From NCBI RefSeq assembly GCF_963921235.1, contig NC_086097.1, positions 108,068,001-108,132,000 on the forward strand: DNA of 64,000 nucleotides, in the 5' to 3' direction. Below the pieces are notes generated by a model. It searched no databases and was not told where the DNA came from. It saw only the letters and a program-made list of their open reading frames with translations. This DNA comes from Mobula hypostoma (taxonomy: Eukaryota). Below, piece after piece: positions 2,906 to 51,666 of the stretch (positions are counted from its first letter, which is position 1; every line of letters starts with the position of its first letter). The position numbers and the translations under genes are program-made.

Positions 2906-3050
2906 AAAATACTCCCTGAATTACATTTTCGTATATTACAATTTGACAGATGCATGTAAGTGCAATTTTTAAAAAGAATCCTCATTTGATTGCTTGAGAA
3001 AGGAAAGAGTAATGATTGGGGAAAAAAAGAGTTTGGAAGCTTGATACTGT

Positions 3051-3758
3051 TGTAGTGCCCCCCCCCACCCGGCCAGCCTCAGGGTCACTTGGCTCGCTGT
3101 CGTCGAGGGAAACAGCCCTCGGCCCCACCAAACTGGGTAATTCGTTTGTGTGGATGCTGTGTGATGTACCCCACCCCACCCAAATAACAGACAATACACC
3201 AGATACGATTAAATGATTTACAGTTTATAGATATTACTGGAACTATATAATTAATAGAGAATAAAATATAAAAGGAAAATAAAAGGCACCACACTTATCA
3301 AAGTTCAATCTTTTCGTGCACAAACAGTTGGAGCTCAGGACCCTTCTTCTTCAGCCTGCGACCCCTCGGACCACCTCGACCGGCCGCCTGGGACCAACAA
3401 CAGTGGTCAACCAGGTGCTCCACACAAGTCCGTCTTTGTCTCCTCTCCTCACTGAACGCCCTGCTTGGGGTCTGACCCCGTTAGCGGACATCACAGCACC
3501 TGGTCCATCCTCTGTCGCTCTCTCCTGCCTTTACCCCCAAAACCCTGCGCATAGAATATCTTCAGATACACCAAAAACATAACAACTATCCCAATTGGTT
3601 CGTAATATATTCTTATCCCACTCTAACCCAAAACAAGCTGCTAGCGCAAGAACTTTCTCAGTGTTTAACATAACAAAGAAGCATTCCCAAGTATAGCATA
3701 ACAAAGAAGCCATTTTAATTAGCCTACGCAGTAACATAAGAGACAAAACCCCCTTACA
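3051..3758 (-). repeat. 3' LTR of the Gypsy element
   Basis: TG...CA termini. Aligns end to end with 6582-7287 and sits next to the polypurine tract. Confidence 0.95.
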
Positions 3759-3770
3759 CTCTCCCCCGCC
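3759..3770 (-). promoter_or_regulatory. Polypurine tract (GGCGGGGGAGAG)
   Basis: Purine-rich run immediately 5' of the 3' LTR on the minus strand. Confidence 0.85.
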
Positions 3771-4247
3771 AAACAAAGTCATATCCTCATGACTTCTAAA
3801 TAACTCGCCAACCAGTCCTGCAGACACACAACAAACACATACACAGATACACACAGTGACAGTGCTCCCCAAACAGTGGACCTTACGGACACTACATAGG
3901 CCAACCTATCTGGGAGCTTCTTAATCCTCCGAGACCTCCGTACCCCCCCCCGCCCCACCTAAACCCTAAAGGCTCAGACACTACTAGGGATACCTCGGGC
4001 CTGCCTGCCAACTGCTCTGTCACTCAGGCCACCATTCCAACTCGGAGCCCCCAGTCCTGTGTCCGGGGCCACGCTTCTTTTCCTTCCTGGTCCTACTGCA
4101 ACTCAGACTGCCCACAGCTAACCCTCCCCACTACACCTGACTCAGTGGGAGAAGGGCCAAAGGTATCTTCCTCAATCACAGGGAAGTTAGCAAAAGGCAC
4201 TACATGTCCAGCACATCATCCTTCGAATTCGTATCCTTCCTCATTCC

Positions 4248-5000
4248 CTCGCTCGGTAGCTGCTGTTTGAGTTTCTCCAAACTGAAACATTTAGCCGGGG
4301 CTACCCCTTCAGCTTCCTGCAGTCGAGACGTCAGCTTCTTCGGGGACTCCTTCAACTCTCGTCACAGCCTCAGTAGTTCTGACTCAGGGTTCTGGGCCAT
4401 CTCAATCTGGGACGCAGTTACCCCACCAGCTTCTTCCACCCTGACCTGACAAGCAGCAGTTAAAGAATGTTCAGCCTCCGGTTGTTTCTTCCTGAGGACG
4501 TTTTCCAGGTCAACTTTCAGTTTTTCCACTTCATTTAAACTCGCGATAGTCATCTTCAGGTTCCTTTCAAGCGTCCGCCTCCCTTTTCTGAGATCTGTCC
4601 TCCATTTCTTCACCTCCTCGGGAGTGTAGTCAAACTCCCCTCCCTGGGCTCTCGGTTTTCTGTTGGCCTTAGTCAGAACACTTCCTTGATCTTCCCCAAC
4701 TTGTAAATCTTCCAATCTTTTCTGGATCGACGTCTTGAGTTTCTGCTGATCCCTTCGAAGGTGGGTCATTGTTTCTTCTCACTGGATTAATTCATCAGTA
4801 CTTGACCACAGTGTCGGCTCAGAATTCCATTGCTCCTTCTCCACAGCAACGAGTGTGAATTCCAAGTCTGCAATGGTCGTCCCACAAGTGCGGCACTCAG
4901 TCTCCGGCCGGCATTTCTGAGCACTCAGTTCAGCGGTGCAAATCCCCTCTCTTCCCTGTGTCTCATTCAGATTGACGACCTGGGTTTCCATCCCCAGGTC
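4248..5000 (-). pseudogene. Captured, intronless, internally deleted sarcomeric myosin heavy-chain rod (S2/LMM) fragment, MYH16-like
   Basis: Translates to DLGMETQVVNLNE...AELSAQKCRPETEC...IADLEFTLVAVEKE...QKRLEDLQVGEDQGSVLTKAN...NLKMTIASLNEVEKLKVDLENVLRKK...RVEEAGGVTASQIEM...ELLRL*RELKES...KKLTSRLQEAE...AKCFSLEKLKQQL. This is collinear with recalled class II myosin motifs (DLELTLAKVEKEK, LDDLQAEEDKVNTLTK, RLEEAGGATSAQIEM, KLAQRLQEAEE, AKCSSLEKTKQRL). Confidence 0.85.
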
Positions 5001-5950
5001 CACCACCGTCTGTTCCAACACCAGGAAGTTCAACTGGTATGTCGGGTCAATTTTCTCACATTGCACCAAACTCCTCCGGCCAAAAACTCCTCCACATTTG
5101 ACACTTTGCTTCTGTCGCCCGGGCTGAGCCACTCGCCTCGCTTCATAGTCCCCCCAGGCGAATCCAAGCTCCAGGCGGTCATCCACATACGCCAAAACTC
5201 CACACACCTTCATTTCCCCCATGGTCTTCCTCATGCCCCGCGGGAAGGATGCAGGGGCTCCGGATATGCCCTTGGGCATCTTTTTGGATCGGAAGAATCC
5301 TAGGGAACTATAGAGAACTGATAACGTCCGTCGTCAGCTCAACAGCTGCACTCCTCAGGATCTGGCAACATCCACTCCTCAGATCCAACACATTAAACCA
5401 CGTCGCATAATCCACACACACGCTGCCTTCATCTTCCACGCCGCCAGGGTCCAGTTGCTGCGACCTCTCTCTCACTGAGGTGTCTTCAGCGGTCAACTCC
5501 CCTCCCTCGTGGTAGTTCGGAGCATCTACTAAGAGGGTCTCACCCTCAGCTACTTTCCCCAAGCCATACCACCGCTGGGTCTCGTTTAAATTCGGTACCA
5601 GCTCAAGGCTACTACACACGTCCTCAGAAGCAACTCGACACACAGGGTGCCCAGACAATTCCCCCATGAACTCCAGGGTCATTAACATCGTCTTCTAGAT
5701 AACTACTGCCACTAGTACCCAAAGTCTCTGGTGCCCTTGCGGTTGTCAAGGGTAAATGCTTCAGACACTGGTTGTAAAACGAACTGTACAACAACTTGAC
5801 CTGCGCCCCGAAGTCAAGGATGGATTTCGCATCGCTTCCCTCTATCCGTAATGACACCCTGGGGCGTGGTCCCTCTAAACCTTCAGGAATAGGGTCTTTT
5901 CCTTTCGGAAGTTCATTGGTACATTGCTGGGAACGTGCTTCCCCAGAGAA
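5001..5950 (-). pseudogene. Deleted and degenerate Gypsy pol: aspartic protease, RT and RNase H remnants
   Basis: Protease: IPEGLEGP...[41 protein letters not shown] and LAYVDD. RNase H motif (SRSL..SEKNYP.HKLEFLALKWAVVD) seen as RRSLVQCEKIDPTYQLNFLVLEQTVVD. Confidence 0.85.
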
Positions 5951-6450
5951 CCCAAGCCGTTCCCCCACTGGGCCTCCACTAAGTTTCCCGACACCTCTCT
6001 GATCAGCTGAACAACTGGAGGAGGGGCTGATCCCCTGAAATGATCCCCCTGGCACTGCAAGCAATTTAGCCGCCCTCCTAGCCAGAGAAGACACACTGAA
6101 AACTTTCCCCCTTCTTTCAAATAACTGACAGCTGTCACTACGGTGTAAGTGAACCTGACAGCTCTAACACTGTCACCAGCCCGCCTACTTAAACTTTCAA
6201 CCAATCCCTGTCGCTCTCCCTCAACCGAGCACTGCCACTCATCTAACAACTGAGAGATCCGCTCCGCCCACGTCTCGCTAGTCTCCGCCCCTCTTGGGGT
6301 GGACACTATCCCAAACGCCAGGCGGAGCCTGCCGGAGCTGGAACATTTATTCACAGTCCCTACCTCCAAATCAGACCACTCTTTCCTCTCTCTCCCAACA
6401 GCATGGACAGCCCCAATTTCCACCTCCAACTCGTCAATGCTAGTCTGAAC
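5950..6450 (-). pseudogene. PNMA/Ma-like gag remnant
   Basis: [47 protein letters not shown] resembles the PNMA-type Gypsy capsid region. Confidence 0.8.
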
Positions 6451-6560
6451 TCGAACAAAGACCGCACCCACCACGCATACAGCAATAACCAGCAAATAAC
6501 CCACAGAGACACATATTACTGATTTAAACAGGGCACCCACACAGCATACCAGTAGATCCA

Positions 6561-6581
6561 ATCCCGGACAAAAGCCCACAA
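6561..6581 (-). promoter_or_regulatory. Primer-binding site, degenerate tRNA-Pro type
   Basis: The minus strand reads TTGTGGGCTTTTGTCCGGGAT directly after the 5' LTR, compared with canonical TGGGGGCTCGTCCGGGAT. Confidence 0.75.
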
Positions 6582-7287
6582 TGTAGTCCCCCACCCCCCA
6601 CCCGGCCAGCCTCAGGGTCGCTCGGCTCGCTGTTGTCTAGGGAAACAGCCCTCGGCCCCGCCAAACTGGGTAATTAGTTTGTGTCGATGCCGTGTGATGT
6701 ACCCCACCCCACCCAAATAACAGACAATACACCAGATACCATTAAATGATTTACAGTTTATAGATATTACTGGAACTATATAATTAATAGAGAATAAAAT
6801 GTAAAGGAAAATAAAAGGCGCCACACTTATCAAAGTTCAATCTCTTTGTGCACAAACAGTTGGAGCTCAGGACCCTTCTTCACCCTGCGACCCCTTGGAC
6901 CACCTCGACCGGCTGCCTGGGACCAACGACGGTGGTCAACCAGACGCTCCACACAAGTCCGTCTCCGTCTCCTCTCCTCGCTGACCCCCCTGCTCAGGGT
7001 CTGACCCTCTTAGCAGACATCACAGCACCTGGTCCATCCTCTGTCTCTCTGTCCCGCCTTCTCCCCCAAAACCCCGCGCATACAATATCTTCAGATACAC
7101 CAAAAACATAACAACTATCCCAATTGGTTCGTAACATATTCTTATCACGCTCTAACCCAAAACAAGCTGCTAGCGCAAGAACTTCCTCAGCGTTTAACAT
7201 AACAAAGAAGCATTCCCAAGTATAACATAACAAAGAAGCCATTTTAATTAGCTTGCGCAGTAACATAAAAGACGAAACCCCCTTACA
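6582..7287 (-). repeat. 5' LTR of the Gypsy element
   Basis: Direct repeat of 3051-3758, roughly 5-10% diverged by eye, with many CpG transitions. Confidence 0.95.
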
Positions 7288-7649
7288 CTGTGAATGTAGG
7301 GTCTTTAGTAATGAGACTTGAAAATTTATGCCAAAATTGTCTGCATTGTTCTTGGTGAGGAAGGGAGTCTTCAGCTGCAGGAAGGTTTTGTTGGACAGAA
7401 TGCAGTAGGGACAAATGGAATTCAATCAAGAATAGTAAGGGAATATGTTTGGGAAGAGTGTGATGAGGTAAGGTACTGAAAAGTAGAGAATTAAGGGGAC
7501 CCAGGACTAGATATACACACATCTGCTTCTGAGAGAAGCAGAATAGGTGTTTACGGCATACAGTATGGGGAAAGTTGGCTTGATTGATGTGACCTACTGC
7601 AGAAGAACAACTAAGTATTTTTCTGTTCGGTAAACACAAAAGAAAATCC

Positions 7650-12728: not shown

Positions 12729-12871
12729 ATTGAGGAAAGAAAATCCCAAGTTAAGATTCAAGATTCAAAGATTCAAAAAACTTTATTGTCATTCTAACCG
12801 TACATCGGCTCTGCAGGGCAGAATGAGACAGCGTTCCTCAGGAGCAGTGCAATCATAACATAACAAATGCA

Positions 12872-14740
12872 TTGAAACCAAATGCGCAAAGCATATTTAA
12901 CTATCGGGTTAGAGACCTGCTTAAGACGTTTCGAATCAAAAGGGAGAGAGGAGCCTAAAATAGAACCCAGTGTATAACCCTGAACCGATTGTAATTCCAA
13001 TGCTACCCATTTAGGAATAGATAGTATGTCCTGGTCAAGTAACCAAAATTTCATATGTCGAATATTAATAGCCCAATAATAGAATCTAAAGTTAGGTAAT
13101 GCTAAACCTCCATCTCTCTTAGCTTTCTGTAAATGTATTTTACCCAGTCTCGGATTCTTATTCTGCCAAATAAGTGAAGAAATTTTAGAGTCAACTTTAT
13201 CAAAAAAAGATTTAGGAACGAAAATTGGTAATGCCTGAAACACATATAAAAATTTTGGCAAAAAAAACATCTTAACCGCATTAATACGACCAATCAAAGT
13301 TAAATATAAAGGAAACCATTTAGATGAAAGTTGAGTAATATGGTCTATTAATGGTAAAAAGTTAGTCTTAAATAAATCTTTGTATTTACAAGTAATTTTA
13401 ATCCCAAGATATGAAAAGTAATTATTAATCAATTTAAATGGAAATTTATAATATAAGGGAAGATGTTTATTAATCGGAAAAAGTTCACTCTTACTAAGAT
13501 TTAATTTATAACCTGAGAAAAGACCAAATTGTGCTAATAACTCTAAAACAGCAGGAATAGATCTCTCAGGATTAGAGATATATAAAAGTAAATCATCAGC
13601 ATAGAGTGATAATTTATGGGACTTTAATCCCCGAGTTATCCCAGTAATATTTGAAGATTCTCGAATAGCAATTGCAAGAGGTTCTAATGCAATATCAAAT
13701 AATAGGGGACTAAGAGGACAGCCTTGTCGAGTACCACGAAAGAGAGGAAAAAAAGGTGAGTTTAAAGAGTTAGTGCGAACCGAGGCTACAGGGGAGTGAT
13801 ATAACAGTTTAATCCAGGATATAAATCTCAAGCTAAAATTAAACATTTCAAGCACCTTAAATAAATAAGGCCATTCTACTCTATCAAAAGCTTTCTCGGC
13901 ATCTAAAGAAATAACACACTCAGGAACATTTTGTGAGGGAGTATAAACGATATTTAACAATGTACGAATATTATAAAAAGAGTAACGACCTTTAATAAAA
14001 CCCGTTTGGTCCTCCGAAATAATAGAAGGAAGTACTTTTTCTAGTCTATTTGCTAATAACTTAGAAAAAACTTTAGAATCAACATTTAATAAAGATATTG
14101 GTCTATAAGATGCACATTGAGCAGGGTCTTTATCCTTCTTTAGTATTAGAGAAATTGATGCTCTATTAAAAGATTCAGGAAGTTTACCAAGTTTCAAAGA
14201 AGCCTCAAAAACCCTACCGAGCCAAGGAATCAATAAAGAAGCAAAACATTTATAAAATTCAACGGTAAACCCATCAGGGTCAGGAGCTTTCCCCAGATTC
14301 ATAGAAAAAATAACATTCTTAATCTCATCCATTGTAATGGAAGTATCTAATAAGGAAGACATATCCTGTGAAATCTGAGGGAAGTCTAACTTATCTAAAA
14401 AATCATTCATATATTTAGAATCTCGAGGAGACTCTGATTGATATAAAGAAGAATAAAAATCACAAAAGGTTTGATTAATCCCCACATGATCCAGTATCAA
14501 TCGATCATTTTGGTTATAAATCTGATTGATTTGAGATTTAACATAATTAGATTTCAATTGATTAGCCAGCAGCTTGCCAATTTTGTCACTGTGAACATAA
14601 AAGTCACTTCTTGTTTTCTTTAATTGGTTTACAATCGAGGACGAGAGTAGTAAACTGTGTTCCATTTGAAGTTCAGTTCTTTGTTTATATAACTCCTCAG
14701 AAGGAGCCATAACATATTTCTTATCAATTTCTTTAATCAA
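12872..14740 (-). CDS. L1 ORF2 reverse transcriptase region (inverted segment, uninterrupted frame)
   Basis: KAPDPDGF, SYRPISLLNVDSK, SLDAEKAFDRVEW, GTRQGCPLSPLLF, YADD and YLGI motifs. Homology ends at WFQ (12872). Confidence 0.9.
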
Positions 14741-14745
14741 TTTCT

Positions 14746-15705
14746 TTTCAATTCAGAAAATTTTTTGATCTTAATCAATTCGGGTTAGCGATTCCTATTT
14801 TAGGTAACATATTTTTTCCTCCCTCTTTTACGGATCGCGCTTTTCAAACTTGGAAGACTAAGGGTATTTTACGGTTTTTGGATTTATTTTTAGATGGTTC
14901 CCTTATGTCTTTTGAACAATTATCTAATAAATATAACTTATCAAGAATACATTTTTTTAGATATTTACAAGTTAGAAATTTCCTAAGTACTATACTTTCT
15001 TCCTTTCCAATGCTTCCTCCTACATATATTTTAGATTCGATAATTAACCTTAATCCATGTCAGAAAGGTGCATCGGCTATGATTTATAATATTATTATGA
15101 AACTTAGGAAAGCTCCATTTGATAAGATTAGGGTAGATTGGGAACAGGAATTGGGGCTTACCATTTCTGTGGATGATTGGGGGCAGATTTTACAATTAGT
15201 TAATACTTCCTCTATTTGTGCTAAACATTCCCTAATTCAATTTAAAGTGGTTCATAGAGCACATATGTCCAAAGATAAGTTAGCGCGTTTTTACTCGCAT
15301 ATTAATCCTTTCTGTGATAGATGTTCGGGGCAGATAGCCTCTTTAACTCATATGTTTTGGTCTTGCCCTGCTTTGGAAACTTTTTGGAGAGATATTTTCA
15401 ATATTATTTCTAAGGTATTAAATATAGATATCTCTCCTCACCCTATTACTGCTATCTTTGGACTACCTAAAATTTCTAGTAATCTTTCCCCTTCAGCCCG
15501 TAGAATGATTGCATTTCTTACTTTAATGGCGAAAAGATGTATTTTACAACATTGGAAAGAGCTTAATGCTCCAACTACCTTTTTTTGGTTTTCTCAGACG
15601 ATTTTATGTTTGAATTTGGAGAAAATTAGAAGTAACCTTTATGATTCTTCATTTAAATTTGAACAGATTTGGGGACCTTTTATTCGATATTTTCATTTAA
15701 TGTAA
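14746..15705 (+). CDS. L1 ORF2 C-terminal region with CCHC zinc knuckle
   Basis: The frame resumes at FQFRKFF, includes CDRCSGQIASLTHMFWSC, and stops at 15705. Confidence 0.9.
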   Translation, partial: FQFRKFFDLNQFGLAIPILGNIFFPPSFTDRAFQTWKTKGILRFLDLFLDGSLMSFEQLSNKYNLSRIHFFRYLQVRNFLSTILSSFPMLPPTYILDSIINLNPCQKGASAMIYNIIMKLRKAPFDKIRVDWEQELGLTISVDDWGQILQLVNTSSICAKHSLIQFKVVHRAHMSKDKLARFYSHINPFCDRCSGQIASLTHMFWSCPALETFWRDIFNIISKVLNIDISPHPITAIFGLPKISSNLSPSARRMIAFLTLMAKRCILQHWKELNAPTTFFWFSQTILCLNLEKIRSNLYDSSFKFEQIWGPFIRYFHLM

Positions 15706-17449
15706 TATTTACCCTTCTTGTTTTTTTTTCACTGTTTTTAATGGAGGTCGGGATTGAGGACGTGATTTTAAGTTTAACTCTGTTTGGTTTCAAGTTAGCC
15801 CATTGCTTTGCTTTGCTTTTAGTTAGCTGCACGGTGGGTTTTTTTTGGGGTTTTTTTTTTTCTTTTTTTTCCATTGATATATATAAAATTTAGTATACTA
15901 TTATGTTATCTTGGTTTCTTATGTTTAAATTACATTGTTTGTAGTAATTTCTTTTTGGTATTGATATCTTTTGGAATTTTATTATACTTTAACATTGTAT
16001 TAATGTTTATATGGCTTACCTTTTTTGTATACTTACTCAATAAAAAGATTTAAAAAGAAAGAAAAGACAAATGCAACACTAAATAATAAACATAACAGTA
16101 AATAGTAAAACACAACAGCCACATGCCAGTTAAATCAGTTATAAGTGTCCAATGCAAGTTAGAAGTGTCCAAAGCAGAGTCAGGTGGAGCAGCTATTTAG
16201 CAGTCTGACTGCCTGTGGGAGGAAGTTGTTTAGTAGCCTTGTGGTTTTAGTTTTGATGCTCCTGTAACGTTTGCCTGATGGCAGAAGAACAAACAGTTCA
16301 TGGAGAGGGTGTGAGGGGTCTAATGATGTACCGTGTCTTCTGGAGGCATCGACTCTGAAAGAGGTCTTGGACAGAAGGTAGGGAGACCCCAATAACCTTC
16401 TCTGCTCCCCTAACCACCCTCTGCAAGGCTTTTTTGTCGACAGCACTGCAGCTGGAGTACCAGGTTGTGATGCAAAAGGTCAGCACACTCTCAACCACAC
16501 CTCTGTAGAATGTAGTTAAGATGTTAGTGGGGAGTGATGCTTGTTTAAGCTTCCTCAGAAAATGCAATCTCTGCTGGGCCCATTTCACAATCCCAGTGGT
16601 GTTCCTGGACCAGGTGAGATTGTCTGAGATCTGCACCCCAAGGAACTTGATGTTTTCCACTCTCTCCACTGTGGAGCCGCTGATGCTGAGGGGTGTGTGC
16701 TCAGGCTGAGACCGTCTGAAATCGACGATCATCTCCTTGGTTTTGGTGACATTAAGCATCAAGTTGTTATCCCTGCACCAGCTCCTAGGTGTTTGACCTC
16801 CTCCCTGTACATAGTTTCATCATTTTTGCTGATGAGCCCCACCACTGTGGTATCATCTGCAAATTTAATGATCAGGTTCTCCTTGAATCTGGCTGCACAG
16901 TCATCTGTTAGCAGTGTAAACAGCAATGGGCTAAGCACACAGCCTTGCGGGGATCCAGTGCTCAGTGTGATGGAGTCAGAGATGTCAGATGTTACTGATA
17001 CCTTGCATCAGAGCTGACCTGTTCCGAAACAAACCAAAGGCTCTGGTGATCAGAATTTGTTGAGTTCAGTATTGAATCCAATGTGCTAATCAAAAGATGA
17101 AGTGCTGCTTAACAAGGTTGTGTTGGACTTTGAACAGTTCAAGTTGTGAAAGACTAAGAAGTCAGAGTGGGAGTACACTGACAGGCAGCTAGAACTTAAG
17201 GTCACTCTGGTGGGTCATTACACAATGAATTGGGTCATTGTCCTCTGTACGGCAAATAGTTTAAAGTGCAGTGCAAGTAGAGCTTGTAGCATAAGCTAAA
17301 ACAAATTCTACTAATGAGAAGGAGAATAATTTCTCCAGGAAAGTGGAATGAGTGAAAATTGGTTGATAACAAATGCTGTACAAAATCATTCAATGTCAGT
17401 TACTGCACTGTGATTGCCAGAAGATTGATAGCAATTAGAGTGGAACTCC

Positions 17450-18949: not shown

Positions 18950-21015
18950 TTAAGACCATTTGGCCCATCGAGTCTACTCTGCCATTCAATCATGGCTGAT
19001 CCCTTTTTATTCCTCCTCAACCCCGGTTCCTGGCCTTCTCCCTGCACCCTTTGATGCCATGTCCAATCAAGCACCTATCAATCTCTGCCTCAAATGCACC
19101 CAACATCCTGGCCTCCACAGCTGCATGTGGCAACAAATTCCATAAAATTCATCACCCTTTGGCTAAAGAAATTTCTCAACATCTGTTTTGAAAGGGCACC
19201 CATCTATCCTGAGGCTGTGCCCTCTTGTCCTAGACTCTCCCACCATGGGAAACGTCCTTTCCACATCTACTCTGTCTAGGCCTTTCAACATTCGAAAGGT
19301 TTCAATGAGATCCCCCCACTCATCCTTTTGAATTTCAGCGAGTACATTCCCAGAGCTATCAAAGCTTCGTTTCATTCATGGAATCATCCTTGTGAACCTT
19401 CTCTGGACCCTCTCCAATGCCAGCACATCTTTTCTAAGGTGAGGCCTCACCAGTGCCTTATGAAGCCTCAGCATCACATCTTTACTCTTGTATTCTAGAC
19501 CACTTGAACTGAATGATAATATGGCATTTGCCTTCCTCACCACCAGCTCAACCTGCAAGTTAACTTTCATGGTGTTCTGCACAAGGACCCCCAAGTCGCT
19601 CTGCATCTCAGATTCCTGGAATTTCTCCCCGTCTAGAAAATAGTCCGCACGTTTATTTCTACTAACAAAGTGCATGACCATGTATTTTCCAACATTGTAT
19701 TTCATTTGCCACTTTCTTGCTCATTCTCCTAATCTGTCTATGTCCTTCTGCATTCTACCTGTTTCCTCAACACTACTTGCCCCTCCACCAATCTTCGTAT
19801 CATCTGCAAACTTGGCAACAAAGCCATCTATTCCATCATCAAAATCATTTATATACAGCATTAAAAGAAGCGGCCCCAACACCGACCCCTATGGAACACC
19901 ACTAGTCACTGGCAGCCAACCAGAAAAGCATCCTTTTCCATTCTGATATGTCCCATTCTCATTCTGATATGTCTATCCACGGCCTCCTCTACTTTAAAGT
20001 TGAAGCCACACTCAGGTTGGAGGAACAACACCTTATATTCCATCTGGGTAGCCTCCAACCTGATGGCATGAACATTGAGTTCTCTCATTTCCGCTACTGC
20101 CTCACCTCCCTTTTTGTACCCCATCCGTTATTTATTTATATACACATATTTTCTTTCTTTCTTTCTTTCTCTCTCTCTCTCTCTCTCTCTCCTTTTTCTC
20201 CCTCTGGCCGTCTCACTGTACCCCTTGCCCATCCTCTGGGTTCCCCCCCCCTTTTCTTTCTCCCTGGGCCCCCTGTCCCACGATCCTCTCATATCCCTTT
20301 ACCAATCACCTGTCCAGCTCTTGGCTCCATCCCTCCCCCTCCTGTCTTCTCCTATCATTTTGGATCTCCCCCTCCCCCTCCCACTTTCAAATCCCTTACT
20401 AGCTCTTCTTTCAGTTAGTCCTGACGAAGGGTCTCGGCCCAAAACGACGACTGTACCTCTTCTTATAGATGCTGCCTGGCCTGCTGTGTTCACCAGCAAA
20501 TTTTATGTGTGTTGCTTGAAGGATCCTTTCATTCCCACTTGCTGCCTCCTATCAATCAGCCAATGCTCTAACCAGGTTAGTAACTTCCCTGTAATACCAT
20601 GGGCTCTTAACTTGCTAAGCAGCCTCATGTGTCACACCTTCTGGAAGTCCAAATATACAACATCCACTACATCCCCTTTATCTATGTTACTTGTAATCTC
20701 CTCAAAGAATTCCCACCAGTTCGTCAGGCAGGATTTTCCCTGAAGGAAACCATGCTGACTTTGTACTATCTTGTCCTGTGTCACCAAGTACTCCAACACC
20801 TCGTCCTTAACAATTGACTCTAACGTCTTCCTAACCACTGAGGTCAGGCTAACTGGTCCACAATTTCCTTTCAGCTGCCTTTCTCCTTTCTTAAAAATTT
20901 TCAGTTTTCTAGTCCTCTGGCACCATGCCAGAGTCCAATGATTTTTGGAAGATCATTTCTAATGCCACCACAATCTCTAACACTATCTCTTTCAGAGCCC
21001 TAGGGCGCAGTTCAT
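18950..21015 (-). mobile_element. CR1 LINE, RT plus 3' UTR, decayed
   Basis: SQHGFLQGKSCLTN, DVVYLDFQK, KFADD and LERVQRRFTRMIP motifs. Confidence 0.9.
19938..20518 (+). mobile_element. Penelope 3' fragment (GIY-YIG C-terminus plus pLTR) nested in CR1
   Basis: SHSHSDMSIHGLLY...RLEEQHLIFHLGSLQPDGMNIEFS, with a mutated hammerhead at 20417-20452. Confidence 0.85.
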
Positions 21016-21019
21016 CTGG

Positions 21020-21780
21020 ACCATTACCTAGAGGCTCACACCTTCCGGTCCCCTGGGTCACAGACTGACCATTGTCTTGAGATTATAACTGTCGCGTTCC
21101 CTAGGTCACTGAGTGACCATTACCTTGAGATGCTTGCTGTCTGGACCCCTGGGTCACAGACTGGCAATTACCTTGAGACGCACACTGTCCGGTTCCCTGG
21201 GTCACAGACTGAATATTGTCTTGAGATGCACACTGATCGGTTCCCTGGGTCACAGACTGAATATTGTCTTGAGATGCACACTGTCCGGTTCCCTGGGTCA
21301 CAGATGGAATATTGTCTTGAGTTGCATACTGTACGGTCCACTGGGTCTCAGACTGACAATTGCCTTGAGACACACACTTTCCAGTTCCCTGGATCACTGA
21401 CTGACCATTGCCTTGAGACACACACCGTTCGGTCCTGTGGATCACAGACTGACCATTGCCTTGAGATGCAGACTGTTCTGTCCCTTGGGACACAGACTGA
21501 TCATTGTCTTGAGACATACACTGTCCGGTTCCCTAGGTCACAGACTGGCCAATACCTTGAGACACACTCTGTCTGGTCCCATGGATCACAAACAGACCAT
21601 TGCCTTGTGATATACTCTTTCTGGTCCCCTGGATCACTGACTGACCATTATCTCGAGACGCACACTGTCCAGTCCCCTGGGTCACAGACTGACCATTACT
21701 GGGAGACGGATACTGTCTGGTCCCCTGGGTCGCAGATTGACCATTACCTTGTGATCTATACTGCCCTGATCCCTGGATCC
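21020..21780. repeat. 48-bp minisatellite, ~16 diverged units
   Basis: Unit is approximately ccctgggtcacagactgaccattgtcttgagatgcacactgtccggtt, head to tail with no spacers. Confidence 0.9.
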
Positions 21781-21809
21781 CATCCCATCCCATAGACGAT
21801 GAGTGACAT

Positions 21810-22624: not shown

Positions 22625-23419
22625 TGTTACAAACCCACAGGTTTCGTTTACTGAGGCTGTTTCTTTAAGAGCGCCTGAGTGAGGTGAGACTATGATGTCA
22701 GTCACAGGCTGAAGGAGTTTGCTTCAGACTTTTACACGGACAGAGAGGGAGAGACTTTCAGTCATGGGAGAGGGAGAGGAAGAGGGAGAACGAACGAGAA
22801 CCAGCTGTCGGGATTTCGGCTGGTCACTGCGATGGTTTGGGACTCTTTTAAGCCCAAAAGATTGGGTTAAACATCAGCACACAATGCACAACGAATGTGT
22901 GACTGTCACTTTATATAATCCATAGGAGTGGATTTTGGGATATCTTGTGGGACCACTTGTGTAGCCCTTGCCTGGGTATGTTGTGTGGTAACCACTGGAA
23001 GACGATATTCCTGTGACAGGTCACTTTTGGTGATAATTAGTACGTGGATTTGGAACATCATGGCGGACCAGATCTACGGCGACTGTTGTCTCGTTTTACC
23101 AGCGTGGAACCTGTGGAATACTTTGTACTTGCCTTTCCTCTGTTTCACCCTGGATTACAAATATCTCTCTCCCATCATTTATTCCGTGGATTATTGAACT
23201 TTCCTACTTTACCATCTTAAGACTTCAAGCCTTATTCCCCAAAGCTCGGTAGTTTGGGAGTTATATTTATACACATATATGCACATAACACTGTTAACTT
23301 TTGTTTATCTTGGTTTGAGTTACTATATTATAAGTAGATGCTAATAAAAAGTGTTTTTATCGTTAAAACCTGACTCAGTGTGAAATCTCTTGCTGCTACT
23401 TTGTTTCTAAAAGATTACA
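22625..23419 (+). mobile_element. Solo LTR (795 bp)
   Basis: TGTTAC...ATTACA termini. 5-bp TSD GTCCT at 22620-22624 and 23420-23424 interrupts a CR1. AATAAA near 23343. Confidence 0.85.
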
Positions 23420-24117
23420 GTCCTAGACTCCCCTACCATGGGAAATAACTTCACCATATTTAAACTGTTCAGGCCTTTTAACATTTGGAATGATTCTATG
23501 AGATCCCTCCTCATTCTCCTGAACTCCAGGGAATGTAATTTCCCTCCAGGGAGCTGTAATTTCCTCAAAAAAAATTGCAGGAAACCATGCTGGCTTTGAC
23601 CTATCTTGCCATCTGCCTCCAGGTACACTGTAATCTCATCCCTAACAATCGATTCCAACAACTTTCCAACCACTGATGTCAGGCTAACAGGTCTATAGTT
23701 TCCTTTCTGCTGCTTCCCACCCTTCTTAAATAGCGGAATAATATTTGCAATTTTCCAGTCATCCGGTACAATGCCAGAATCTATCGACTCTTGAAAGATC
23801 ATTATTAAAGCTTCTGCAATCTCTCCAGCTACTTCTTTCAGAACCTGAGGGTGCATTCCATCAGGTCCAGGAGATTTATCCACCTTCAGACCATTAAGCT
23901 TCCTGAGCACCTTCTCAGTCGTGATTTTCACTGCACATACTTCACTTCCCTGACACTCTTGAATGTCTGGTATACTGCAGATGTCTTCCACTGTGAAGAC
24001 TGATGCAAAACACGCATTCAGTTCACCTGCCGTCACTGCGTCTCTCATTACAATATCTCCAGCATCATTTTCTATTCGTCCTATATCTACCCTCTACTCT
24101 TTTACCCTTTATATACC

Positions 24118-34739: not shown

Positions 34740-36270
34740 AGATGGTTGAATGCTCCTCTTGTGGGATGAGGGAAGGCAGGGGACCTCCAGTGTCCCTGAC
34801 AACTACAACTGTGAGAAGTGCATCCAGCTGCAGCTTTTGGAGCTGGAACTAGATGAACTCCAGATCATTTGGGAGGCTGAAGGGGGTGATAGATAAGATA
34901 TTTGGAGAGGTAGTTACACACTAGGTACAGGACACTGGGTAACAGTCAGGAAGGGGAAAGAGGTTAAGGAGCTAGTGCAAAGTACCCCTGTGGACATCCC
35001 CCTCAACTACAGGTGTATCACTTTGGATACTGGGGTTTGACCTAACAGAGTAAAGACACAGTGGTGGGATCGCTGGCACTAAGTCTGACTCTGTGATTCA
35101 GAAGGAAAGGTGGGATGGGGGCGGGGGAGGGGCAGAGAAGAGACACACTGTGGTGATAGGAGATTTGTTAGTTAGGAGAACAGACAGTTGGTTCTGTGGG
35201 TGAGAACGAGATTCCCGGATGGTATATTGCCTCCTGGGTGCCAGGATCCAGGACATTGATTGAGACCTAGCGTTCTTAAGTGGGAGGTTTAACAGCTAGA
35301 GTATGTGACCCATGTAGGTACCAATGATGTGGGTAGGATGAGTGATGAGGTTCTGCATAGGGAGTTAGGTGCTAAGTTAAAGGGCAGGATATCCAGGTCT
35401 GTGATCTCAGGATTGCCACCCGTGCCATGTGCTAGTGAGGCCAGATCTAGTAGGATTATACAGTTTAATATGTGGCTAAGTAGTTGGTGTAGGAGGAATA
35501 TTTTTGGATCATTGGGCTCCCTTCCAGGGAAAATGGGACCTGTACAAAAGGGACGGTTTGCAATTGATCTGCAGGGGGACTAATACTGTATCCCAGCAGG
35601 AAGGTTTGTTAATGTTGCACAGTGGGGTTTAAACTAGAGTTGCCGGGGAATGGGAACCAGAATACCAGAACAGTTAGTGGAGAGGCTGTGGAGGTAGATG
35701 TTGGTAAGACCTCAGACAAGGTCAGGAATTGAAAGGTCCAGAATGGTGGGAATAGTGTCCTGAGCTGCATATATTTCGATGCAATAGGTATCGTAGAAAA
35801 GGCAGATGAGCTCAGGGCATGGATCAACACCTGGAATTATAACATTGTAGCCATGAATGAGACTTGGTCGCAGGAGGGGCAGGACTGGCAGCTCAGTCTT
35901 CCACGGTCCTGTTTTAGATGTGACAGAGTGGGAGGGATTAAAGGAGGAGGGGAGGAGTTACTAGTCAGGGAAAATGTCACAGCAGTGCTCCGTCACGACA
36001 GACTGGAGAACTTGTCTAGTGAGGTGTTATGGGTGGAAATGAGAAATAAGAAAGGTATGACCACATTAATGGGGCTAAATTACAGACCACCCAATAGTCC
36101 TAGGGATTTAAAGGAACAAATTTGTGACGAGGTTGCTGACAGTTGCAAGAAACATAAGGTTATTATAGTAGGTGATTTTAACTTTCCACATCGTGACTGG
36201 GGATCCCATAAAGGACTAGATGGATGGAGTTTGTCAAATGTGTTCAGGAAAGTTTCCTTCATCGGTGCAT
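34740..36270 (+). mobile_element. CR1 LINE 5' part: ORF1 (zinc finger and SGNH esterase) and ORF2 endonuclease, decayed
   Basis: VECSSCGM, HVGTNDVG, ETW, LWVEMRNKKG..YRPPN and VGDFNFP motifs. Confidence 0.8.
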
Positions 36271-45820: not shown

Positions 45821-48770
45821 CGTCCGACTGTCATGGTTGACCATGGGTACTGCGCCTCTGATAGTCACTGGTTTGTCGAGCAGCGTCAACTGTGGCTATT
45901 GAGGCTGATTCGGGAACGGCAGGCTCTGCCACAGTTGCTGCATGTGTAGGACGCCGTGGAATTGTTGTCCGCTGTGCTCTCCATTTAACTCTCCTCTCCT
46001 CAAACTGACTCAGGATCACTCTTTCGCCTTGCTCTGAAGAGTACCTTGCCATTTGTTGTGGTCATCTGCTGTATCCTCCCAGCACTCTGTGTTGATTTTT
46101 AAGGCTTTCATGTTGTGCTTACAGAGGCCCATGAAGTGAAGCTGGGGTCTACCAATATTCCTCCTGCCTGTTGCTAGTTCTCTGCAGAGGATGTCCTTTG
46201 GCAGTCTACCATCCTTCATACAACAGATGTGGCCTGGCCAGCGCAGTCTGCGTGGTCTTAAAAACGTGAACATTGTGGGAAGTCCAGTGCAGGAGAGAAC
46301 CTCAGAGTCTGGGACTTTGTCTCTCCAGGTGAAGGGTTCTGATGAGCTGCCATCGTACTGAACAGTAGCCCTCATGTCGTCACGGAATGACTTGATGATA
46401 CTTTGGAGTTTCAGGGGACAGCCAATCTTGAGGAGAATCTGAAACAGCCCATCCCTGCTGACAAGGTTGAATGCCTTGGTCAAGTTGATGAAAGCAACAT
46501 AGAGGGGTTTCTGTTGTTCCCTGCACTTCTCCTGGAGTTGACGGAGTGAGAAAATCACGTCAACAGTTGACTTCCTTGCGTGAAAACCACATTGGGACTC
46601 AGGGTAGACCCGTTCTTCCAGAGTTTGTAGACATGCCAGAGTTACACAAGCAAAGACTTTGCTGACAATACTCAGGAGGGAGATAGAAACAAGGAAAATA
46701 GGTGCAGGAGTAGGCCATTCGGCCCTTCGAGCCTGCACCGCCATTTAGTATGATCATGGCTGATCATCCAACTCAGAACTCTGTACCTGCTTTTTCTCCA
46801 TACGCCCTGATCCCTTTAGCCACAAGGGCCGTATCTAACTCCCTCTTAAATATAGCCAATGAACTGGCCTCAACTGTTTCCTGTGGCAGAGAATTCCATA
46901 GATTTACCACTCTCTATGTGAAGAAGTTTTTCCTCATCTCGGTCCCAAAAGGCTTCCCCTTTATCCTGAAACTGTGACCCCTCGTTCTGGACTTCCCCAA
47001 CATCAGGAACAATCTTCCTGCATCTAGCCTGTCCAATCCCTTTAGAATGTTGTACATTTCAATAAGATACCCCTGTAGTTGTTGCAGTCGCTCCTATCTC
47101 CCTTGTTCTTGTATAGAGTGATGATTTTGGAGTCGTGCATATCTTGTGGTACGGCTCCTTCCTTCCAGCACTGACGGAGGACCTCATGTAAAGGTTAGAG
47201 GAGTGGGCTCTTGCAGTGTTTGATCAGGTCTGGAGGAATCCCATCATTACCAGGAGCTTTCCCTGGGGCCAGACTGTCAGTTGCCTTGCTGAGGTCCTCA
47301 GTGGTTGGTTCGGAATCGAGTTCATCCATGACTGGTAGACAATCGATGGCATCAATGGCTGAGCTAACAACAACATTTTCCCTCGAGTAGAGCGTTCCAT
47401 CTGCTTGCTTTTATTGGTGATTATTTCACCACTGGATGTCTTCAGGGGTGCTGTCTTGCTCTGCAATGGGCTAAGGGCCTTCTTGATACCATCATACATC
47501 GATCTGATGTTGCCTGTCACAGCTGCTGTCTGAATGTCCTCACTGAGCTGGAGCCAGTACTCGTTTGTGCACTGCCTTGCTGTCTGTTGCAATTTGCTTC
47601 GAAGTGGCTGGAATGTTTGGTCGGATGGTGAACGCTTGTACTCTGTGGGAGCTGCACGCTTGGTTTTGATGGACTTTGCCTCAAACCACTCACAGTCCTA
47701 AGGTGGTAATTTAATAATTCCAAATGATTCTTGAAATATTCGAGAGGAAAGATTTCCCAAATCAGCTTTGGACCAGTCCATGCAGTATAGACATCACTGC
47801 TGCCGCAGCTCCCAGCCGAAATGCCTTATCCGTAGTTATGACGCAAAATACGATTTCTCAAAGTAAATGACCTTTCAACAAAGTGGTCATCACACAATAC
47901 CCAAACCGTGTAAGGGTTAACAAAACTTGTGTGCCACGTATGGACGGTTCCAAATGTCAGTCACACCTGTAATGCGAAATGCTGCTGGTTAACCCCAATC
48001 CTTCTGGGGTTCGTTCGGAGCTGCTGATTCTCCACTCTCACTCTCTTCTTCTCCGATGGCATAACTATCAACGGTGAATTCCCACCAAAACTAACTACGC
48101 AACAACTGTGGTTTCCCCTTATATACCAGTTGGAACATGCCATCACATGACATCACACCACCCCACTAACACAAGACAATTACATCATTCCAATGGCACA
48201 AGACAATTACATCATATTCACGAGATACTCACGGGACAGGTAACAAGCCAATGAGGAAGACTGACAGCACCTTATTGGCTGGGGGCTGTCCAGCTTGAGG
48301 CCGGCAGTAACTCTCCAGCGAAATGTGATGGTCTCTCCCACCATTAGAAGCAACCCCTGGCGCCATGCTCTACGCCAATCAAGCATTATGACTTATAACT
48401 GGTAACTGCTGCTTCCCACGTTTGTCTGACGCTATAAAGTGAAGCTGGAGTGGCCTCTCCAGGGCGCAAGCCAGGGCAGTGTTGATATGGAGATCCATCT
48501 GTTGCCCATGCAGTGGGACCCCCTTCTCCATGCAGATGACAGGTCCAAAGGAACGACAAAAGTCGATACAGTTTGGTGCCAGCAGCATCGCAGGAGTTGC
48601 CGTGCTGGTGCTGGGTACAGCAGTCAGGACTCCGACTCCAGGTTTTTCCTCGGGGTTTACTCCCAAAGGCTTTCCTGTAAGGGGTATAGCCGCAAGGCAG
48701 CGGAGGTTTGAAATTGGAGTTTTCCCTCTCCTAGATGAGCTACCATCCGTGGTTAGTGTGATCTGGGCCG
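45821..48770 (-). mobile_element. RTE (BovB-like clade) LINE, internally deleted, inserted in a Rex1 3' end
   Basis: VYPESQCGF..STVDVIFSLRQLQEKCREQQKPLYVAF..LTKAF and RRLRW.GH..MKDGRLPKDIL motifs. Rex1 flanks lie at 45310-45406 and 48932-49245. A CR1 tail is nested at 46685-47072. Confidence 0.85.
47695..48245. mobile_element. Possible LTR fragment nested in the RTE
   Basis: A CpG-retaining block unrelated to the RTE, ending in GTAACA. Left boundary unclear. Confidence 0.35.
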
Positions 48771-51666
48771 ACATTTACATGCCGGGCGGCACCTAATTAG
48801 CTTGTTTATTTCAGCTTTTTTCTTAAAGATGTGCTGGGTGTGTTCTGACTACCGCTGCACCGCTGCATTCTTCATGGCAATGTATCGGTCTGCGGCCTGG
48901 AGGTTGGGTACCACTGCCTTAAAACCAGTTTAAGGAGCGGTACCTCAGAAATGCAGTATCCTCCACCATCCAGGACATGACCTCTTCTCATTGTTACCAT
49001 CAGAAAGGAAGTACAGAAGCCTGAAAGCACATACTCAGTGATTCAGGAACAGCTTCTTCCTCTCTGCCATCTGAACACTACCTCACTACTTTTTTTAATT
49101 TCTGTTTTTGCACTACTTGTTTAATTTAACTAGTTAATATACATGCTGTAATTCAGTTTTTTCTCTATATTTATCATGTATTGTACTTCTGCCATGAATT
49201 TAACAAATTTCACGACAAATGCCAGTGATAATAAACCTGATTCTGGTTCTTCTGTCCCTGTTCTGTTTTATATCAATGCCATATGTATAGCATGTAGTTG
49301 GGTGCCTCTGGGATGCACTGTTACTGGTGGCCCTTCCATTGAGCATGAAGAATTGCTGACTTCATTTCCTGTATGAGCCCTTCTCTTGTGTGCTGTACAT
49401 TCTGATAGGTAAAATTCTGCCATTTTACTGTTCTCCGTCCCAACTAAATGAACTGCAGGTTAATGATGGTTGCATACCTATACAAGAAACAGATTAGATT
49501 TTCTCTTCATTCTCCATGTACTGTTTGCAGACATTTTTATTTCATCCTCATCTGTGTTGTTTCCTGAGCACTACACTAAAGGTTGTTATTTATTTCTTGA
49601 GCCTCTCGTCTATCGCAGTAGTTGTGATCGTGACTGCAGCACTCCCTCCTTTTGTATATGTCCATTTATTTGAGCTAATACTGAATGTTAACTTTGAATT
49701 CTGCAGTTGTCCTAACTCTCCTTGTTCTATTTGGTTCAGGCCCCCTCATCAGCAGTGTACCTAAGAGGGTCACACATGTCAACAGGATTTTGGCAGTCTT
49801 GCATTTCAAGTACTTGATGTGGTATAGAGAAACGAACCTGGTCAGGTGTCAGATCTCTTCGTGGGAGAGCATTTTGGAGATAGTGATCGCAATGCTACCT
49901 TCTTTACCATAGCATTGGAGAGGGATAGGAACAGACAAGTTAGGAAAGCATTTAAGTGGAGGAAGGGGAAAGATGAAGCTATCAGGCAGGAACTTCGAAG
50001 CATAAATTGGGAACAGATGTTCTCAGGGAAATATACAGCAGAAATGTGGCTAATGTTCAGGGATATTTGCATGGAGTCCTGCACAGGTACATTCCAATGA
50101 GTTGGAAAGGATGGTAGAGTACTGGAACCGTGGTGTACAAAGGCTGTTGTAAATCTAGTCAAGAAGAAAAGAAGAGCTTACGAAAAGTTAAAAAAAAACT
50201 AGGTTATGATAGGGATCTAGAAAATTATAAGGCTAGCAGGAAGGAGCTTAAGAATGAAATTAGGAGAGCCAGAAGGGGCCATGAGAAAGCCTTGGTGAGT
50301 AGGATTAAGGAAAATCCCAAGGCATTCTACAGGTATGTGAAGAACAAGAGGATAAGATATGACAGAATAGGACCAATCAAGTGTGACAGTGGAAAAGTGT
50401 CTATGGAACCAGAGGAGGTGGCAGAGGTACTTAGTGAATACTGAAGCAAAGTATTCACTACAGAAAAGGACTTTGGTGATTGTGGGGATGACTTACAGCG
50501 GACTGAAAAGCTTGAACATATAGTCATTAAAAAAGAGCATGTGCTGGAGCTTTTGGAAAGCATCAAGTTGGATAAGTCACTGGGACTGGTCGATATATAC
50601 CCCAAGCTACTGTAGGAAGCGAGGGAGGAGATTGCAATAATTTTTGCATCATCAATGGGAATGGGAGAGGTTGCAGAGGATTGGAGGGTTGCAGTTGTTG
50701 TTCCCTTATTCAAGAAAGGGAGTAGAGATAGCCCAGGAAATTATAGACCAGTGAGTCTTACGTCAATGGTTGGTAAGTTGATGGAGAAGATCTTGAGAGG
50801 CAGGATTTATAAAAATTTGGAGAGGCATAATATGATTAGGAATAGTCAGCATGGCTTTGTTAGAGGTAGGTCGTGCCTTACGAGCCTGATTGAATTTTTT
50901 GAGGATGTGATTAAACACATTGATGAAGGTAGAGCAGTAGATGTAGTGTATATGGACTTCAGCAAGGCATTTGATAAGATACGCCATGCAAGGCTTATTG
51001 AGAAAGTAAGGAGGCATGGGATCCAAGGGGACCTTGCTTTGTGGATCCAGAATTGGCTCACCCACAGGAGGCAAAGAGTGGTTGTAGACGGGTCATATTC
51101 TGCATGGAGGTTGGTGACCAGTGGTGTGCCTCAGGTATCTGTTCTGGGACCCCTTCTCTTCATGATTTTTATGAATGACCCGAGTGAGGAAGTGGAGGGA
51201 TGGGTTAGTAAATTTGCGGATGACACAAAGGTTGGAGGTGTTGTGGATAGTGTGGAGGACTGTTACAGCGGGATATCAATAGGATGCAAAACTGGGCTGA
51301 GAAGTGGCAGATGGAGTTCAACCCAGATAAGTGTGAGGTGGTTCATTTTGGTAGGTCAAATATGATGGCAGAATATAGTGTTAATGGTAAGACTCTTGGG
51401 AGTGTGGAGGATCAGAGGGATCATGGGGTCCGAGTTCATAGGGCACTCAAAGCTGCTGCATGGGATGACTGTGTGGTTAAGAAGGCATACGGTGTATTGG
51501 CCTTCATCAATCGTGGGATTGAATTTAAGAGCTGAGAGGTAATGTTACACCTATATAGGACCCTGGTCAGACCCCACTTGGAGTACTGTGCTCATTTCTG
51601 GTCCCCTCACTACAGGAAGGATGTGAAAACTATAGAAAGAGTTCAGAGGAGATTTACAAGGACGTT

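What the first reader, a model, noticed from the sequence alone, without database searches (positions are those of the whole stretch)
4200..5688. The chimeric pol-myosin reading frame appears to have been kept open through multiple deletions
Seen: RT remnant, RNase H remnant, four non-contiguous myosin blocks and the start of the pol tail all lie in one frame from about 5300 to 4200. That frame has only two internal stops, both TGA (4779-4781 and 4362-4364). Both fall where myosin appears to have Arg (LRL*RE vs LKLRRE), consistent with CGA>TGA CpG decay. The upstream frameshift is explained by a 10-bp tandem duplication (tagggaacta/tagagaactg, 5301-5320); removing it joins the 5308-5688 ORF in frame. 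Inference: several large deletions that all preserve frame suggest the progenitor encoded one long (Gag-)PR-remnant-myosin coiled-coil protein. This could reflect selection for translatability (NMD avoidance or packaging) or a new function.
Basis: partly seen in the sequence, partly recalled or inferred. Interest (0 to 1): 0.8.

Follow-up and report, generated by a model that had tools for sequence, protein, structure and literature searches.

The report
Ray retrotransposon keeps junk frame open
A jumping gene with hundreds of copies in a ray genome swapped its integrase for a spliced piece of a muscle myosin gene, and its active ancestors kept that reading frame free of stops while the protein sequence drifted, which suggests the RNA must stay translatable in order to keep jumping.

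Summary
Window 3051-7287 (minus strand) is one decayed copy of a non-autonomous Gypsy-type LTR retrotransposon; at least 468 copies share one myosin junction. Spliced mRNA of a divergent MYH16-sister myosin (G000:C68, not MYH16 itself) replaced integrase, in frame at both ends.

In-frame is the commonest state at 22 of 22 shared junctions, and no stop is shared by most copies (0 of 636 codons; about 9 expected). But dN/dS is about 1 and nine prolines are fixed in the coil, so a new coiled-coil function is not supported.

Gag is a separate frame, joined by the parental -1 slippery site, so this is not one ORF. Best reading (0.6): selection acts on translatability of the RNA (decay escape or translation-coupled packaging). 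Expression was not shown.

The parts
3047..3050 (.). left target-site duplication (4 bp)
   Evidence: same 4 letters flank both ends
3051..3758 (-). 3' LTR, TG...CA termini
   Evidence: direct repeat with 6582-7287; 48 of 702 sites differ
3759..3767 (-). polypurine tract
   Evidence: sequence; similar tract before the LTR of autonomous relatives
4024..4244 (-). pol C-terminal tail remnant; the long frame ends at 4024-4026 in most copies
   Evidence: frame-aware alignment to autonomous pol; stop shared by 36 of 38 copies
4197..4203 (-). private 7-nt loss that ends the frame early in this copy
   Evidence: 36 of 40 other copies differ by 7 nt, 3 by 6 nt
4248..4304 (-). myosin block 5 (donor codons 571-589)
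   Evidence: 75% nt identity to donor
4305..4352 (-). myosin block 4 (codons 552-567), after a 208-codon deletion
   Evidence: 85%
4353..4445 (-). myosin block 3 (codons 313-343), crosses an exon-exon junction; private stop at 4362-4364
   Evidence: 85%
4446..4475 (-). myosin block 2 (codons 261-270)
   Evidence: 83%
4476..5003 (-). myosin block 1 (codons 76-251), crosses four exon-exon junctions; stop at 4779-4781
   Evidence: 80%; donor exons located
4995..5084 (-). RNase H remnant
   Evidence: 66% nt to autonomous copy; tblastn to P0294
5109..5430 (-). reverse transcriptase remnant
   Evidence: RVT_1 E=0.018, below cut-off; 62-66% nt to autonomous copy
5301..5320 (-). private imperfect 10-nt tandem duplication (frame break in this copy)
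5431..5688 (-). PR-RT linker remnants between in-frame deletions
5683..5690 (-). private 5-nt loss (frame break in this copy)
   Evidence: 37 of 40 other copies differ
5690..5962 (-). protease remnant
   Evidence: 48% aa to P0294, E=1e-20
5983..5989 (-). -1 slippery heptamer GGGAAAC, as in the autonomous family
   Evidence: 7 of 7 autonomous copies and 31 of 47 element copies (hand count)
5875..6516 (-). gag remnant frame (PNMA-type capsid piece; zinc knuckles deleted); start codon lost in this copy
   Evidence: PF14893 E=8.5e-6
6561..6580 (-). primer-binding-site-like sequence
   Evidence: position next to the 5' LTR; likeness to a tRNA-Pro 3' end is recalled, not tested
6582..7287 (-). 5' LTR
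7288..7291 (.). right target-site duplication

Best explanation
A Ty3/Gypsy element with a PNMA-type gag captured spliced mRNA of a MYH16-sister myosin in place of its integrase. It became a non-autonomous parasite, inferred to be mobilised by the related autonomous family in the same genome. For a long time and in several subfamilies it kept shrinking, but only lineages that kept gag open, kept the -1 junction and kept the pol-myosin frame open almost to the 3' LTR went on to amplify. The amino acids do not matter; the passage of ribosomes does.

Most likely an early stop leaves a long untranslated tail on the unspliced genomic RNA, which is then degraded by UPF1-dependent decay before packaging. 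Occasional -1 frameshifting into a long open frame protects it. Translation-coupled entry into particles is the second candidate.

Shown: capture of spliced mRNA, the donor, the frame bias, the lack of shared stops and neutral amino-acid change. Inferred: helper use, translation, frameshifting and the decay or packaging link.
For: Junctions: in-frame is the commonest state at 22 of 22 shared junctions of the pol-myosin frame, pooled over subfamilies, with an aligner that charges nothing for a frame change at long gaps. With 20 counted as independent, P is 1e-6 at p=0.5, 1.3e-4 at p=0.64 and 1.8e-3 at p=0.73. The null values come from private indels of 9 nt or more (7 of 11 in frame) and from microhomology pairs (0.40-0.73). 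Shared indels outside coding parts: 6 of 42 are multiples of three (hand count).

Stops: no codon has a stop in half of the copies (0 of 636 long-frame codons in 40 copies, 0 of 175 gag codons in 37). Expected on the stem: 3.5-4.5 for myosin alone (P 0.03-0.01), and about 9 for the whole long frame if the myosin stem length of 0.18 per site applies (my arithmetic). Of 125 stop-adjacent donor codons, 43 changed residue in most subfamily-B copies and none became a stop.

Amino acids: myosin stem dN/dS 1.22 (bootstrap 0.86-2.13) against 0.96 within copies. Pol parts between subfamilies 0.70-0.92 against 0.60-0.66 within, uncorrected.

Literature, read as passages: early stops in RSV gag cut genomic RNA to about 10% before packaging (PMC9143442); low-level readthrough or -1 frameshifting protects transcripts from decay (PMC6277124).
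Against: No expression, translation or frameshifting was shown. The frameshift region does not fold better than shuffles (z=0.6). The heptamer is altered in 16 of 47 copies, and two copies share one altered form, so a lineage with a changed site probably spread. One linker junction is in frame in only 5 of 13 A and 7 of 14 C copies (poly-G length variation). One junction seen only in the single oldest copy scored is out of frame. Short frameshifts recur in 3-6 of 40 copies at homopolymers, and stops recur in up to 10 of 38 copies at CpG codons; they are scattered on a weakly resolved tree (8 and 7 changes). Junction anchors were chosen after seeing the blocks, and several deletions are nested. 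About 90 of several hundred or more copies were sampled, by similarity or by long open frames. The stop test for the myosin part alone is only moderately significant.
Confidence: 0.6

Rival explanations
1. The Gag or Gag-Pol-myosin fusion polypeptide itself acts in cis in a sequence-tolerant way, for example as a nascent chain that tethers its RNA to assembling helper particles or to membranes.
For: Gag and the -1 junction are kept. The region at the slippery site and protease start is among the most similar to the parent (80-83% against 54-80% further on). The gag frame begins with a hydrophobic stretch.
Against: dN/dS is about 1 throughout. Zinc knuckles, most of capsid, most of RT and all of integrase are gone. 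Different subfamilies keep different pieces.
Confidence: 0.18
2. No selection: template switching at microhomologies favours in-frame deletions in coding and heptad-periodic sequence, and the lack of shared stops is chance.
For: Private deletions of 9 nt or more are already 7 of 11 in frame. Microhomology pairs in the donor are 48-73% in frame. Exact repeats of 5-11 nt lie near 8 of 12 myosin deletions. The myosin-only stop test gives P of only 0.01-0.03.
Against: Even p=0.73 gives 1.8e-3 for 20 junctions. The bias cannot explain the missing shared stops, nor the missing shared short frameshifts: 40 of 55 private indels shift the frame, so about 5 are expected on the stem and none was seen as a net shift.
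Confidence: 0.14
3. The myosin coiled coil gives the element or the host a new function (domesticated or accessory protein).
For: The capture is in frame and in sense. RefSeq predicts proteins of 269-450 aa from copies in Mobula. The element is also in Hypanus.
Against: dN/dS of 1 or more on the stem; 9 prolines fixed where the donor has none; 2 of 12 deletions keep heptad register. Copies radiate as a star with neutral terminal branches.
Confidence: 0.05

Closest known systems
LTR-mediated retrocopies in animals (Tan et al. 2016, PMC5131818; passages read)
   Same: Part of the internal ORFs is replaced by an intronless mRNA piece, in sense, between LTRs; in-frame products are common in young cases.
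   Different: Those are few and young; 14 of 21 older ones carry loss-of-function changes. Here there are hundreds of copies in several subfamilies, and a frame kept open over about 0.18 substitutions per site with neutral amino-acid change.
Maize Bs1 (seen only through passages of PMC5131818 and PMC7264820; the primary paper was not held)
   Same: An LTR element whose pol region is replaced by transduced host exons in a hybrid ORF, with secondary retroposition.
   Different: Bs1 has three donors and 1-5 copies, with one piece out of frame. This element has one donor, high copy number, a kept -1 gag-pol junction and about 20 serial in-frame deletions.
Retroviral genomic RNA under nonsense-mediated decay (RSV gag stops; protection by readthrough or frameshifting; PMC9143442 and PMC6277124, passages)
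   Same: Unspliced RNA with a gag stop, a recoding site and a long downstream frame.
   Different: Shown there by experiment in autonomous viruses whose proteins are needed. Here the proteins look dispensable, so the RNA-level constraint would stand alone.
Defective interfering RNAs of picorna-, corona- and plant viruses that keep in-frame deletions (recalled; two searches gave listings only)
   Same: A helper-dependent parasite shrinking by in-frame deletions.
   Different: Those are cytoplasmic RNA viruses over a few passages. This is a germline retrotransposon over evolutionary time.

Membership tests
Ty3/Gypsy LTR retrotransposon, PNMA-gag clade | two LTRs with TG...CA ends, short target-site duplication, PBS and PPT | tested here: met
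   the tRNA identity of the PBS is recalled only
Ty3/Gypsy LTR retrotransposon, PNMA-gag clade | gag, then PR-RT-RNase H, then integrase, homologous to Gypsy polyproteins | tested here: met
   order and homology to P0294 and to autonomous copies in the genome; myosin lies where integrase was
Autonomous Gypsy element | complete PR, RT, RNase H and integrase | tested here: not met
   large deletions, no integrase
Non-autonomous element mobilised in trans | a related autonomous family in the same genome with shared cis signals | tested here: inconclusive
   a family is present (150 scored matches) but only 60-80% alike in patches, LTRs included; helper use not shown
LTR-mediated retrocopy | captured piece lacks the donor's introns | tested here: met
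   donor exons with GT/AG borders over about 180 kb are contiguous in the element
LTR-mediated retrocopy | microsimilarity at the switch points | tested here: inconclusive
LTR-mediated retrocopy | co-transcription with the LTR element | tested here: inconclusive
   no listed run is on record as RNA
Bs1-like chimeric gene | several donors, few copies | tested here: not met
   one donor; at least 468 copies
Bs1-like chimeric gene | translated product | not testable with these tools
   needs ribosome profiling or proteomics
Functional myosin-like coiled coil or domesticated gene | purifying selection, heptad register, no helix breakers | tested here: not met
-1 programmed frameshift signal | slippery heptamer at the gag/pol overlap plus a downstream structure | tested here: inconclusive
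   heptamer present in the window and in 31 of 47 copies; fold not above shuffles; efficiency untested
MYH16 orthologue as donor | captured piece closest to the genome's MYH16 gene | tested here: not met
   48-76% nt to the C36 MYH16 exons against 75-85% to the C68 gene for the window's blocks; AU test p=0.033 against grouping with C36 MYH16

The most novel reading that the evidence does not exclude
A germline retrotransposon family under long-term selection purely for being translatable. It keeps a gag frame, a -1 frameshift site and a junk frame of about 650 codons (partly host myosin) as an RNA-protection or packaging device. This would be a natural, million-year-scale demonstration that decay or translation-coupled packaging filters which LTR elements can amplify, with hundreds of natural variants available to test it.
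Probability: 0.5. Interest if true: 0.75.

Novelty: new variant of a known kind. Interest (0 to 1): 0.6.

Why it matters
An open frame that survives many deletions is usually read as protein function. Here frame and protein come apart: the frame is kept and the amino acids are neutral. If confirmed, this gives a clean evolutionary test of whether nonsense-mediated decay or translation-coupled packaging limits LTR retrotransposon spread in vertebrate germlines. It also warns that long ORFs in non-autonomous elements are not evidence of domestication.

Two practical points follow. Copies are annotated as myosin-like or uncharacterised genes in ray genomes. And the donor is a deep sister paralogue of MYH16 that had no close match among the bony-vertebrate myosins I compared.

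Tried and rejected
- First donor guess, the C36 MYH16 gene: rejected. Other sarcomeric myosin loci on C40, C2 and the C68 fast cluster fit worse.
- Horizontal origin from a bony vertebrate: no MYH16 in hand was clearly closer than the ray's own, and a 93-94% identical donor lies in the genome.
- Single gag-to-tail ORF: two natural copies have stop-free runs of 812 and 836 codons, but through scattered homopolymer indels in the overlap, not as the family state.
- Expression: no RNA holder listed. Contigs of four runs of guessed or unknown kind, from three organisms, cover the element and some bridge the RNase H-myosin junction. This is not counted for or against.
- Frameshift-stimulator fold: not above shuffles.
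- Rfam and tRNA scans of the window: nothing.
- Atlas search of a donor exon gave only generic myosin-tail clusters.
- One search used wrong coordinates (gag-protease part) and was not used.
- Literature searches found no report of this element or of frame-only selection in a non-autonomous LTR element. The library lacks most subscription papers; repeat libraries such as Repbase and Dfam and supplements were not seen.

Full report
WHAT IS THERE. Window 3051-7287, minus strand, is a 4.2-kb LTR element. It has LTRs at 6582-7287 and 3051-3758 with TG...CA ends, a 4-bp target duplication, a PBS-like site and a PPT; the LTRs differ at 48 of 702 sites. Inside are remnants of a PNMA-type gag, protease, RT, RNase H and the pol tail, homologous to a Gypsy polyprotein (P0294) and to an autonomous family in the same genome. 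Myosin rod sequence lies where integrase was. The family is abundant: 842 and 1,399 first-look candidates, and 468 matches to one myosin deletion junction with 0 control matches. RefSeq models in Mobula and Hypanus are copies, and one copy here matches a Mobula model at 100%.

THE OBSERVATION. The frame, the two TGA stops and the 10-nt repeat are as described. Against 40 other copies of the same subfamily (two interrupted copies left out), the repeat is private (39 of 40), as are a 5-nt loss near 5687, a 7-nt loss near 4200 and loss of a start codon at 6514-6516. The first stop sits at a CpG codon that decays recurrently (31 of 38 keep it, 3 are stops); the second does not (0 of 40 have a CpG codon). 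In most copies the long frame has no stop from 6163 to 4026, and the gag frame none from the PBS to 5877. The two overlap in the -1 relation in 46 of 47 copies from four subfamilies. The heptamer GGGAAAC lies at the same place as in 7 of 7 autonomous copies and is intact in 31 of 47 element copies (hand count). So the layout is gag plus a -1 pol-myosin frame, not one ORF.

THE DONOR. Named hits pointed to MYH16, but the window's blocks are only 48-76% identical to the genome's MYH16 gene on C36, and a tree rejected that pairing (p-AU 0.033). A second gene on C68 carries the element's diagnostic residues. Its exons were found by patterns that end in GT or begin after AG. Ten exons with canonical borders and no stop were read; two exons inside the large deletion were not fetched. 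The window's five blocks are 75-85% identical to it, and the oldest copies 85-94%. The element crosses the exon junctions without intron sequence, so spliced mRNA was captured. The donor falls as a long-branch sister to all MYH16 in hand.

IS THE FRAME BIAS REAL? Ninety de-duplicated copies (from 125 segments; 5 loci skipped) plus one more fall into subfamilies A (17), B (43, with the window), C (20), D (2) and 9 others, each with its own deletions. I scored junction phase in 59 copies (17 A, 21 B, 20 C, 1 D) with an aligner that allows any frame after a long gap at no cost. At 22 of 22 junctions of the pol-myosin frame seen in three or more copies, in-frame is the commonest state when groups are pooled. 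This includes the junctions from RNase H into myosin (B 21 of 21, C 18 of 19, A 16 of 16) and from myosin into the tail (50 of 51).

Against this: the linker junction is mixed in A (5 of 13) and C (7 of 14) because of a variable poly-G run; one C junction is 5 of 9; and the single D copy is out of frame at three pol junctions. The null is not one third: private indels of 9 nt or more are 7 of 11 in frame and microhomology pairs 0.40-0.73. For 20 independent events P runs from 1e-6 to 1.8e-3. Shared indels in LTRs, leader and tail are multiples of three in 6 of 42 cases (hand count).

Stops give an independent test. Terminal branches turn 2.6% of substitutions into stops, yet no codon is a stop in half of the copies (0 of 636 and 0 of 175). 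The most shared stops (10 and 7 copies) need 8 and 7 changes on a weakly resolved tree. Expected on the B stem: 3.5-4.5 in myosin alone, and about 9 over the long frame if the same stem length applies (my arithmetic). Private indels shift the frame in 40 of 55 cases, about one per copy; about five would be expected on the stem and no net shift is seen. Sampling favoured copies with few lesions, which lowers these expectations, but it could also miss subfamilies with shared lesions.

IS THE PROTEIN UNDER SELECTION? No sign of it. From pairwise distances, myosin dN/dS on the B stem is 1.22 (0.86-2.13) against 0.96 among copies with transition correction, and 0.65 against 0.57 without. A and C stems give 1.06 and 1.38. 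Pol remnants between subfamilies give 0.70-0.92 against 0.60-0.66 within, uncorrected. Nine positions read proline in most B copies where the donor has none, and 2 of 12 deletions are heptad multiples. Values above 1 depend on the correction and are not taken as positive selection.

MECHANISM. The frame is kept and the residues are free, which points to selection on the RNA's translation. In RSV, early stops in gag cut unspliced RNA to about a tenth before packaging (PMC9143442, passages). Low-level readthrough or -1 frameshifting protects transcripts from decay, and stops soon after the recoding site probably undo it (PMC6277124, passages). An element that keeps gag, the slippery site and a long frame ending about 270 nt before the 3' LTR fits this. 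I give it 0.6, counting translation-coupled packaging with it; a sequence-tolerant cis role of the nascent chain 0.18; mutational bias and chance 0.14; a new protein function 0.05. Nothing here shows transcription, translation, frameshifting or helper use. The fold downstream of the heptamer is not above shuffles, and some copies share an altered heptamer.

COMPARISON AND NOVELTY. LTR-mediated capture of mRNA is known in animals and plants (PMC5131818, PMC7264820; passages), usually in one to a few copies that then decay. Bs1 is the nearest named case, seen only through these papers. In-frame defective interfering RNAs are a recalled analogy. Searches found no report of this family or of frame-only selection in a non-autonomous LTR element; repeat databases, subscription papers and supplements were not seen. 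The scan had noted the capture on another piece of this genome and on this stretch; those notes agree, and were read after my own reading was set. Verdict: a new variant of a known kind, interest 0.6.

Noticed in passing
G000:C68 about 14.52-14.71 Mb (L166-L169, L173-L178): The donor is an open-frame, very large-introned sarcomeric myosin gene, only 59% identical to the genome's MYH16 over 459 rod residues. It is placed as sister to all gnathostome MYH16 in hand (starred, but on a long branch) and lies about 0.6 Mb from the fast-myosin cluster. Possibly an undescribed paralogue.
   Followed up: partly
L110, L179 (oldest copies): Retroelement sequence runs up to the first base of a donor exon, so the 5' capture point may be a splice junction (read-through and splice capture) rather than a template switch. 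Two copies only.
   Followed up: partly
P0007 (RefSeq, Mobula birostris): A model named glutathione S-transferase theta-2 isoform X1 is entirely element sequence. P0255 (aggrecan-like) also matches an element piece over 50 residues. These look like annotation artefacts or exonisation.
   Followed up: no
P0145 (RefSeq, Hypanus sabinus): Carries the subfamily-A junction pattern plus further myosin deletions, so the family spans at least two ray genera. The DNA frame was not checked.
   Followed up: partly
window 5500-5530 and homologous sites in subfamily A and C copies: A poly-G run in the linker is length-unstable in some older lineages and interrupted in the most abundant subfamily.
   Followed up: partly
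window 6440-6516: The start codon shared by subfamily B is not at the parent's gag start and opens a hydrophobic stretch derived from TG-rich leader sequence; possibly a compensating new start.
   Followed up: no
L117-L126: The autonomous family carries an expandable tandem repeat of about 42 nt in the pol tail, reaching kilobases in some copies.
   Followed up: no
window 12797-15702, 16301-16816, 23410-24093, 35733-36269, 46019-46744, 50616-52066, 59782-62702: Long frames that look like L1-, CR1- and other LINE remnants by recalled motifs; not searched.
   Followed up: no
window 21004-21792: A 263-codon frame made of a tandem repeat of about 17 residues.
   Followed up: no
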